Source: Escherichia phage Mizar
Sequence record: PV714129.1
DNA: 64,000 nt
Strand: one strand, 5' to 3'
A program made the position numbers and the translations under genes. How positions within the stretch are numbered: the stretch's first letter is position 1; each line of letters begins with the position of its first letter. Under the pieces are notes generated by a model, which worked only from the letters and a program-made list of their open reading frames with translations, was not told the origin of the DNA and ran no database searches. Below, piece by piece: positions 45,824 to 46,154 of the stretch.

Positions 45824-46093
45824 TTATTTCTGTGCAATTTCGATGTAAGTTTTCAAAATATTTTGCCAATTAGGCATACCTTCTTGGACATATGCTGGAG
45901 AACCGTCTTTGTTTTTGAATGATGCAAGTTTATCAGTGGCCCAATAACCTTTAGCTCGAGCTTCAGAATCAACTTTCATCCATACTTTGTTGAAGGCATT
46001 ACCATTAACTTTTGCACCATATTTTTCTACTAACTTAACTGCTTCAGCTTCCAGAACTTTTAAAGTATCTCTTAAGAAACGTGCTTTAGTCAT
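45824..46093 (-). CDS. hypothetical early protein (89 aa) inserted between genes 23 and 24
   Basis: Minus-strand ORF with GAGGAG SD and its own PeSL-like early promoter; occupies the position of segD in T4. Confidence 0.5.
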   Translation of the reverse strand: MTKARFLRDTLKVLEAEAVKLVEKYGAKVNGNAFNKVWMKVDSEARAKGYWATDKLASFKNKDGSPAYVQEGMPNWQNILKTYIEIAQK

Positions 46094-46154
46094 TTTGTTT
46101 ACTCCTCTGTAGTTGATAAGTCTATAGTATCACGTACCAAATACGTTGTAAACA
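46094..46154 (-). promoter_or_regulatory. PeSL-like early promoter cassette inside the late head-gene cluster
   Basis: GTTTACA -N17- TGaTACTAT then AGACTTATCAACTACAGAGGAG-N-ATG. Confidence 0.55.

What the first reader, a model, noticed from the sequence alone, without database searches (positions are those of the whole stretch)
45824..46154. Early-promoter cassette plus 89-aa ORF inserted between major capsid gene 23 and vertex gene 24
Between two highly conserved late genes lies a minus-strand ORF with its own PeSL-like promoter and strong SD. T4 carries the homing endonuclease segD at this position; here it is an unrelated small protein with no nuclease motif. Genes dropped into structural modules with their own early promoters are typical cargo (anti-defence or host takeover).
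Basis: partly seen in the sequence, partly recalled or inferred. Interest (0 to 1): 0.55.

Follow-up and report, generated by a model that had tools for sequence, protein, structure and literature searches.

The report
Small early orphan gene between capsid genes
Between the major capsid gene and the capsid vertex gene of this RB69-like (Mosigvirus) phage lies a real, early-promoter-driven 89-residue gene that databases already list as a hypothetical protein; it is a swappable accessory cassette of a kind common in T4-like phages, and its function is still unknown.

Summary
An 89-aa minus-strand ORF (45824-46093) lies between gene 23 and gene 24. It has a GAGGAG ribosome-binding site and a phage early promoter (GTTTACA-N14-TGATACTAT, 46153-46124), one of six identical-pattern sites in the window, all on the minus strand (0.00 expected by chance).

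The window is a Mosigvirus (99.5% to PhAPEC2). The ORF is RB69ORF188c, PHROG 6003, annotated "hypothetical protein" in over 200 phage records.

It is a real gene: dN/dS is 0.07-0.25 and the AlphaFold model has pLDDT 89 (three helices plus a beta-hairpin). The protein is basic (pI 9.6), with an invariant NGN..N motif. No Pfam, NCBIfam, PADLOC, PDB or fold match gives a function, and the family is small and found only in phages.

The slot is modular. It is empty in most Tequatrovirus and in the Klebsiella, Enterobacter and Serratia T4-like phages sampled. T4 holds segD there, behind a homologous promoter. Dhakavirus and Gaprivervirus hold a 31-38% identical "type B" allele. Mosigvirus LF82-16 holds type B plus a segD-like endonuclease, although its flanking capsid genes are 99-100% identical to the window's.

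Verdict: an ordinary early orphan-gene cassette. The "cargo" reading is supported; the anti-defence reading is untested. Interest is low to moderate.

The parts
44203..45771 (+). Gene 23 (major capsid protein), left flank. Its last 28 nt (45744-45771) lie inside the tract exchanged in phage LF82-16.
   Evidence: ORF list; annotated homologues; nine synonymous differences at 45744-45768 versus LF82-16.
45795..45814 (+). Gene 23 intrinsic terminator hairpin (TGGGAGAC-TTCG-GTCTCCCA, then a T-run). It is conserved in empty and filled slots. On the minus strand it is followed by AAAAUAAGAUUU, so it probably stops the early transcript poorly.
   Evidence: minus-strand RNA hairpin -13.7 kcal/mol, z -4.9; no U-tract.
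45824..46093 (-). 89-aa ORF, RB69ORF188c family, PHROG 6003. Soluble, basic (pI 9.6), three helices plus a beta-hairpin, invariant N30-G31-N32..N35 and Q70.
46102..46107 (-). Shine-Dalgarno GAGGAG, 8 nt upstream of the ATG. It contains GGAG, which from general knowledge of T4 is the RegB target motif in early mRNAs (inference).
   Evidence: Sequence; unstructured leader; the same SD follows sibling promoters.
46124..46153 (-). Phage early (sigma-70 type) promoter GTTTACA-N14-TG-a-TACTAT. The start site is inferred near A46117, at the conserved ATCAAC box.
   Evidence: 6 copies, all minus strand, 0.00 expected.
46160..46167 (+). Late promoter TATAAATA of gene 24. It abuts the A/T-rich upstream region of the divergent early promoter and marks the right edge of the cassette.
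   Evidence: conserved in every slot state, including the empty one.
45815..46159 (-). The whole cassette (about 345 bp) that is present here and absent from the empty-slot phage ECO4.
   Evidence: Alignments A3 and A4 with the empty Tequatrovirus ECO4 slot.
45744..46101 (.). Tract replaced in Mosigvirus LF82-16 by a type-B ORF plus a segD-like endonuclease. The right breakpoint lies between the SD and the ATG; the left breakpoint lies in the last codons of gene 23.
46195..47478 (+). Gene 24 (capsid vertex protein), right flank.

Best explanation
This is a dispensable, early-transcribed accessory gene cassette of the promoter-plus-orphan-ORF kind typical of T4-like phages. It sits between the gene 23 terminator and the gene 24 late promoter. 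Shown: host RNA polymerase would recognise a canonical phage early promoter; the leader is short and unstructured and carries a strong SD; the ORF is a real protein-coding gene under purifying selection with a confident compact fold; the cassette is present, absent or exchanged among related phages, with a junction in the shared promoter/leader and, in some phages, a hitch-hiking segD-like homing endonuclease. Inferred: the protein is made in the first minutes of infection and is then shut off. It acts in the cytoplasm as a small basic binder of a host, or competing-phage, macromolecule through the conserved polar patch (NGN..N helix cap, S57, K62, Q70), tuning infection in particular hosts rather than serving a core phage function. 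Whether the target is a defence protein, another host protein or nucleic acid is not known.
For: Promoter, SD and ORF. Identity with RB69ORF188c and PHROG 6003. Real gene: dN/dS 0.07-0.25; AF2 pLDDT 89.4; a type-B relative in BFVD has the same fold, TM 0.83 at 31% identity. Dispensable: the slot is empty in ECO4 and in the other Tequatrovirus records and the Klebsiella, Enterobacter, Serratia and Cronobacter T4-like phages sampled, and split or truncated copies occur in mogra and 310Ecol104PP. Modular exchange: window vs LF82-16 is gp23 100%, gp24 98.8%, ORF 31.5%. The LF82-16 ORF is 94% identical to Dhakavirus WG01, whose flanks are only 83% and 69% identical. The metagenomic locus L010 carries a type-A-like allele in a Dhakavirus-like backbone. 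Relatives sit among small unannotated genes, or at the head of small-gene clusters, in Vequintavirinae, a siphovirus contig and a divergent T4-like contig. Not virion-flagged: the PhAPEC2 record marks the neighbouring genes as structural virion proteins but not this ORF. Basic and soluble: pI 9.6, GRAVY -0.56; pI is 9.2-9.9 in 13 full-length family members and 8.0 in P0021.
Against: There is no direct evidence of expression timing, binding partner or phenotype. No similarity to any characterised protein was found by sequence or by fold. The basic charge argues against the DNA-mimic class of anti-restriction proteins. Retention at one position in three genera could instead mean a phage-internal role.
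Confidence: 0.55

Rival explanations
1. It is a specific counter-defence (anti-immunity) protein. The two deeply diverged alleles, A and B, reflect an arms race with strain-specific E. coli defence systems, possibly ones that sense the neighbouring capsid protein.
For: Early promoter and accessory status. Two allele classes about 31-38% identical are exchanged between backbones whose capsid genes are 83-100% identical. The fold matches no solved or predicted structure of known function. Distant relatives lie in regions of small unannotated genes in unrelated phages.
Against: No anti-defence library was available to test against. PADLOC gave nothing, but it holds defence proteins, not anti-defence proteins. 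dN/dS within each class is low (0.07-0.25), so there is no sign of ongoing diversifying selection. The link to capsid sensing is pure conjecture from gene position.
Confidence: 0.2
2. It is a nucleic-acid-binding regulator: a small basic protein that binds DNA or RNA to modulate phage or host gene expression early in infection.
For: Net charge +6 and pI 9.6, with pI 9.2-9.9 in 13 other full-length family members and 8.0 in one. Invariant Asn/Gly/Asn helix N-cap plus conserved Lys, Ser and Gln on the adjacent hairpin, a composition common in phosphate-backbone contacts (inference).
Confidence: 0.15
3. The protein is secondary. The cassette persists because it belongs to a homing-endonuclease-mobilised module, or because occupying the slot changes the target site of segD-like endonucleases.
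For: A segD-like GIY-YIG gene lies 3 nt downstream of the type-B ORF in LF82-16 and in Dhakavirus 04086. It is 57% identical to T4 SegD. The exchanged tract in LF82-16 extends into the last codons of gene 23, as expected for co-conversion. T4 segD uses the homologous promoter.
Against: Most carriers, including all type-A Mosigvirus seen and WG01 and VR20, have no endonuclease. Purifying selection acts on the protein itself. Relatives occur outside this slot.
Confidence: 0.07
4. The main product is antisense RNA. Early transcription reads through the weak minus-strand terminator into gene 23 and damps premature capsid expression, and the ORF is incidental.
For: On the minus strand the hairpin is not followed by a U-tract. 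Gene 23 lies directly downstream in antisense.
Against: The ORF is conserved as protein, with saturated synonymous change and dN/dS well below 1. It has a strong SD and a confident fold. Empty-slot phages manage without any such promoter.
Confidence: 0.03

Closest known systems
PeSL (promoter-early stem-loop) ORFan cassettes of T4-type phages (Arbiol et al. 2010, PMC2839356; Comeau et al. 2014, PMC4122927)
   Same: A strong sigma-70-type early promoter matches the published T4/PST consensus TTTACW-N17-TAYWAT. It has an A/T-rich upstream region, and an SD and start codon at its 3' end. It is repeated many times in the genome and precedes an orphan ORF that is inserted, deleted or replaced between close relatives. 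One recombination junction lies in the conserved promoter/leader.
   Different: This copy has no convincing stem-loop. It lies inside the conserved structural module rather than a hyperplastic region. It is flanked by only one such element, not two. On the other side the boundary is the gene 23 terminator and 3' end.
T4 segD locus (free-standing GIY-YIG homing endonuclease between genes 23 and 24)
   Same: Same slot, same antisense orientation, and a homologous sigma-70-like promoter and leader upstream. In LF82-16 and 04086 a segD homologue shares the operon with the small ORF.
   Different: The window's protein is 89 aa and has no GIY-YIG or other nuclease domain. It is unrelated in sequence to SegD (223 aa).
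Small early host-takeover or growth-inhibitory proteins of Tevenvirinae (for example Alc, AsiA, MotB, and Emp/Gp94 of Mosigvirus AV110, bioRxiv 10.64898/2026.09.14.751387)
   Same: Size class, early promoter, lack of known domains and accessory distribution.
   Different: There is no sequence or fold similarity to any of them, and no phenotype is known. The AV110 screen selected only genes with T4 homologues, so this gene was not tested.
Lambdoid 'morons'
   Same: A single extra gene with its own promoter, placed between two genes of a late structural operon.
   Different: It is transcribed antisense to its neighbours, has no terminator of its own, and is exchanged by homologous recombination through conserved flanks.

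Membership tests
PHROG 6003 / RB69ORF188c family (function unknown) | Full-length match to the family profile | tested here: met
   E 2.1e-45, residues 1-89 on profile positions 1-90 of 90. The product is identical to the PhAPEC2 protein annotated 'similar to RB69ORF188c'.
PeSL ORFan cassette | Sigma-70-like early promoter (TTTACW-N17-TAYWAT) with an A/T-rich upstream region | tested here: met
   TTTACA-17-TACTAT with TG; A/T-rich upstream region; consensus taken from PMC4122927.
PeSL ORFan cassette | Stable stem-loop within or next to the promoter | tested here: not met
   Only a 5-bp ACGTA/TACGT stem, -3.2 kcal/mol, z -0.93, 34 of 200 shuffles as good. No inverted repeat of 7 nt or more in the promoter. 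Sibling promoters at 12953, 4126 and 13688 do have one (z about -3).
PeSL ORFan cassette | Motif repeated in the genome | tested here: met
   Six exact-pattern copies plus one diverged copy in 64 kb, all on the minus strand, 0.00 expected.
PeSL ORFan cassette | Associated ORF is inserted, deleted or replaced between related phages, with a junction in the motif | tested here: met
   Slot states found: empty, segD, type A, type B, type B plus endonuclease. The LF82-16 junction lies at 46099-46101, between SD and ATG.
PeSL ORFan cassette | ORF flanked by two PeSLs, able to excise as a mini-circle | tested here: not met
   There is only one promoter element. The other border is the gene 23 terminator.
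Seg-type GIY-YIG homing endonuclease (segD) | GIY-YIG catalytic domain and a DNA-binding domain, about 220 aa | tested here: not met
   89 aa; no Pfam or NCBIfam hit at threshold.
Known anti-phage defence system components (PADLOC-DB) | Match to any PADLOC model | tested here: not met
   0 families at E up to 10.
Known anti-defence proteins | Homology to a characterised inhibitor family | not testable with these tools
   No anti-defence profile library was available. PDB sequence and fold searches, which include solved inhibitor complexes such as Ocr, gave nothing significant.
DNA-mimic anti-restriction proteins (Ocr/Arn type) | Strongly acidic surface | tested here: not met
   pI 9.6; 16 Lys+Arg against 10 Asp+Glu.
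Virion or prohead component | Late promoter; detected in particles | tested here: inconclusive
   The promoter is of the early type, and the only late promoter in the gap faces gene 24. The PhAPEC2 record flags the neighbours as structural but not this ORF. No proteomic data were examined. A weak hit to PHROG 8765 'internal virion protein' (E 0.09) is not significant.

The most novel reading that the evidence does not exclude
PHROG 6003 proteins are a new-fold, dimorphic (type A / type B) early effector that decides infection success on particular E. coli strains, acting as a counter-defence or inter-phage competition factor. Their alleles move between Tevenvirinae genera by recombination in the shared early promoter and by co-conversion driven by a segD-like homing endonuclease.
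Probability: 0.2. Interest if true: 0.55.

Novelty: new member of a known kind. Interest (0 to 1): 0.3.

Why it matters
The gene is one of the many uncharacterised early genes of therapeutic-type coliphages. Mosigvirus, Dhakavirus and Gaprivervirus are common in phage-therapy collections. If the protein proved to be a host-range or counter-defence factor, its two exchangeable alleles would be a handle for predicting or engineering host range. The locus also gives a clean natural example of an orphan gene, an early promoter and a homing endonuclease combining into one mobile module inside an otherwise rigid capsid operon. As it stands, it adds a well-delimited candidate to that list rather than a new principle.

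Tried and rejected
(1) Function by sequence gave nothing usable: Pfam (only DUF4859 at E 0.003, below cut-off, and seen in just 2 of 14 members), NCBIfam, PADLOC, and PDB with phmmer and with a profile.
(2) Deep homology also failed to add a characterised relative: three word-indexed searches and one exhaustive HMM search of 1.84 billion representatives returned only about 25 phage clusters. Hits to giant repeat proteins P0022 and P0024 are summed weak repeat matches, and P0020 is a chimeric fragment.
(4) A non-coding RNA in the gap was ruled out: nothing in Rfam approaches a gathering score.
(5) Literature searches for RB69ORF188c and NP_861878 found no paper. The AV110 early-gene screen did not include this gene.
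(6) The chance-ORF reading is rejected by dN/dS, synteny and the confident fold.
(7) A bidirectional role for the gene 23 terminator is rejected on consensus grounds, because there is no U-tract on the minus strand.

Full report
**What is there.** The window reads as described. Gene 23 ends at 45771 and is followed by a strong hairpin terminator (45795-45814, UUCG loop, T-run). An 89-codon ORF runs on the minus strand from 46093 to 45824. Upstream of it on the minus strand lie GAGGAG (46107-46102, 8 nt from the ATG) in an unstructured leader. Further upstream is GTTTACA (46153-46147), then a 17-nt spacer ending in TG-a, then TACTAT (46129-46124). Immediately beyond, on the plus strand, is TATAAATA (46160-46167), the late promoter of gene 24, which starts at 46195.

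**Is the promoter more than chance?** The pattern GTTTACW-N14-TGATACTAT occurs six times in the 64-kb window. All six are on the minus strand, against 0.00 expected in 100 dinucleotide-preserving shuffles. Aligning these sites with a seventh diverged copy near 8500 shows a shared architecture: an A/T-rich upstream stretch, the -35 box, an extended -10 box, a conserved ATCAAC(TAC) box where transcription should start, an SD and an ATG. This matches the T4/PST-type consensus TTTACW-N17-TAYWAT published for PeSL elements (PMC4122927). The stem-loop half of a PeSL is not convincing here. The only stem is 5 bp, -3.2 kcal/mol, z -0.9. Three sibling promoters have significant stems over the -10 box, with z about -3.

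**Identity of the phage and the gene.** The 551 bases around the ORF are 99.5% identical to Escherichia phage PhAPEC2 and 99% or more identical to about 40 records, among them Mosigvirus (RB69-like) phages such as PhAPEC2, JS09, HX01 and APCEc01. In PhAPEC2 the ORF is annotated "hypothetical protein, similar to RB69ORF188c". Its neighbours are annotated gp23 and gp24 and flagged as structural virion proteins; the ORF is not. The protein matches PHROG 6003 (unknown function) end to end, E 2e-45. The existence of the gene is therefore already on record. I found no paper that mentions it.

**Is it a real gene?** Yes, on five grounds.
- tblastn finds it in 239 phage records: about 120 at 90% or more, and 119 at 31-38%.
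- Pairwise Nei-Gojobori estimates give dN/dS of 0.07-0.25, with synonymous sites near saturation between alleles.
- AlphaFold2 with a 14-sequence alignment gives pLDDT 89.4 and pTM 0.74. The model has helix 3-25, helix 31-48, a hairpin at 52-60/66-70, and helix 76-88.
- A 31%-identical relative in BFVD has the same predicted fold, TM 0.83.
- The protein is hydrophilic and basic (pI 9.6). pI is 9.2-9.9 in 13 other full-length members and 8.0 in P0021. Across the widest alignment the invariant residues are M1, K3, F6, G31, N32, N35 and Q70, with L14, L21, N30, A45 and S57 nearly so.

**What it is not.**
- No Pfam, NCBIfam or PADLOC family matches, and no PDB sequence.
- An exhaustive profile search of 1.84 billion representatives and three word-indexed searches recover only about 25 clusters, all from phage contexts. 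Hits to giant repeat proteins and a chimeric fragment are artefacts.
- It is not a nuclease, not an acidic DNA mimic, and not an Rfam RNA.

**The slot is modular.**
- Tequatrovirus ECO4: the gene 23 hairpin is followed after about 17 nt by the gene 24 late promoter, with no gene between. The same short spacing is seen in the sampled Tequatrovirus records and in Klebsiella, Enterobacter, Cronobacter and Serratia T4-like phages.
- T4 and OES_C-1: an antisense segD sits there. Upstream of it is TTTACA-N17-TATTAT with TG, which aligns with the window's promoter. A review states that no segD-specific promoter had been identified (PMC2988022).
- Gaprivervirus VR20 and Dhakavirus WG01: an 88-93-aa "type B" homologue occupies the slot, 33-36% identical to the window's "type A".
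- Dhakavirus 04086 and Mosigvirus LF82-16: type B is followed, 3 nt later, by a segD-like GIY-YIG gene that is 57% identical to T4 SegD.

**Alleles move independently of the backbone.**
- Window versus LF82-16: gp23 is 100% identical, gp24 98.8%, the ORF 31.5%.
- The LF82-16 ORF is 94% identical to WG01's, although their flanks are only 83% and 69% identical.
- The metagenomic locus L010 has a type-A-like allele (61% to the window) in a Dhakavirus-like backbone, with gp23 92% identical to WG01.
- The tract replaced in LF82-16 corresponds to window 45744-46101. Its right junction falls between the SD and the ATG, so the early promoter is shared. Its left junction lies in the last 28 nt of gene 23 and is marked by nine synonymous changes.
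- This is what recombination through a conserved promoter element would produce, with endonuclease-driven co-conversion on the other side. Both mechanisms are inferred from the sequence pattern, not shown.

**Members outside the slot.** More distant relatives (30-35% identical to the window's protein) occur elsewhere:
- among small unannotated genes in a Vequintavirinae phage (ABPH49) and a related contig;
- next to the tail-tip gene in a siphovirus contig;
- at the head of a small-gene cluster beside baseplate genes in a divergent T4-like contig.

**Dispensability.** Split or truncated copies exist in mogra (51 aa) and 310Ecol104PP (64 aa).

**How it most likely works.**
- Shown: a canonical early promoter, an efficient translation start, a conserved folded basic protein, accessory distribution and modular exchange.
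- Inferred: the gene is expressed in the first minutes. The GGAG in its SD is the motif that RegB cleaves in T4 early mRNAs; this rests on general knowledge of T4 and was not tested here. The transcript probably reads through the hairpin into gene 23 antisense, because no U-tract follows on that strand. The protein acts as a small cytoplasmic binder through the conserved polar patch at the helix-2 N-cap and the hairpin.
- Not decided: whether the target is a defence protein, another host protein or nucleic acid. I give the general "early accessory effector" reading 0.55. The explicit anti-defence reading (0.2) and the nucleic-acid-binding reading (0.15) are listed as separate rivals that name the target. 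Endonuclease-module or site-occupancy explanations get 0.07, and a purely antisense role 0.03.

**Comparison with known systems.**
- It works like a PeSL-type ORFan cassette. It meets the tests for promoter, repetition, variable cargo and junction in the motif. It fails the stem-loop and two-flanking-element tests.
- It shares its slot and promoter with T4 segD but is unrelated to it.
- It belongs to the broad class of small early Tevenvirinae proteins. A recent screen of 45 early proteins of Mosigvirus AV110 chose only genes with T4 homologues, so this gene was never tested (bioRxiv 10.64898/2026.09.14.751387).

**Verdict.** The added value is a precise delimitation of the cassette, the evidence that it is a functional gene, and the picture of a four-state, horizontally exchanged slot linked to a homing endonuclease. 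Interest 0.3; novelty: new member of a known kind.

Noticed in passing
window 802-831, 4097-4126, 8480-8530 (diverged), 12924-12953, 13659-13688, 46124-46153, 61758-61787, all minus strand: A family of near-identical early promoter/leader cassettes: A/T-rich stretch, GTTTACW, N14, TGATACTAT, ATCAAC(TAC), SD, ATG. Three copies (12953, 4126, 13688) carry significant stem-loops overlapping the -10 box, as described for PeSL elements.
   Followed up: partly
L019 (phage T4, NC_000866) 5254-5282, minus strand: T4 has TTTACA-N17-TATTAT with an upstream TG directly in front of segD. It aligns with the early promoter of the window's slot. The 2010 review PMC2988022 says no segD-specific promoter could be identified.
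   Followed up: partly
L004 (Escherichia phage 04086, OR842557) 2771-3442: An unannotated 223-aa segD-like GIY-YIG homing endonuclease ORF lies 3 nt downstream of the type-B small ORF. The gp23 gene in that record is annotated too short (an intact 519-aa ORF is present at L004 3502-5061).
   Followed up: partly
window 26403-26427: A 92% identical copy of the gene 23 terminator hairpin region occurs elsewhere in the window, so terminators as well as promoters are repeated regulatory modules.
   Followed up: no
Phage mogra MN850579 65653-65918 (H70; P0007) and 310Ecol104PP (P0019): These records carry split or truncated copies of the ORF (51 aa and 64 aa), which suggests the gene can be lost without killing the phage.
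   Followed up: no
P0006 (L010, ENA/JGI metagenome contig of 173 kb): One source names this 90-aa homologue 'NADPH-dependent curcumin reductase CurA', an evident mis-annotation. The same contig pairs a type-A-like allele with a Dhakavirus-like backbone that has two gp24 copies.
   Followed up: partly
P0022 (1347 aa) and P0024 (3916 aa): The family profile gave E 1e-15 and 5e-7 against giant repeat proteins through 9 and 11 summed weak repeat matches. These are artefacts of repetition, not homologues.
   Followed up: partly
window 44203-45771 versus 45824-46093: Gene 23 is much more G+C-rich (45.9%) than the small ORF (34.8%) and the window as a whole (38.1%).
   Followed up: no
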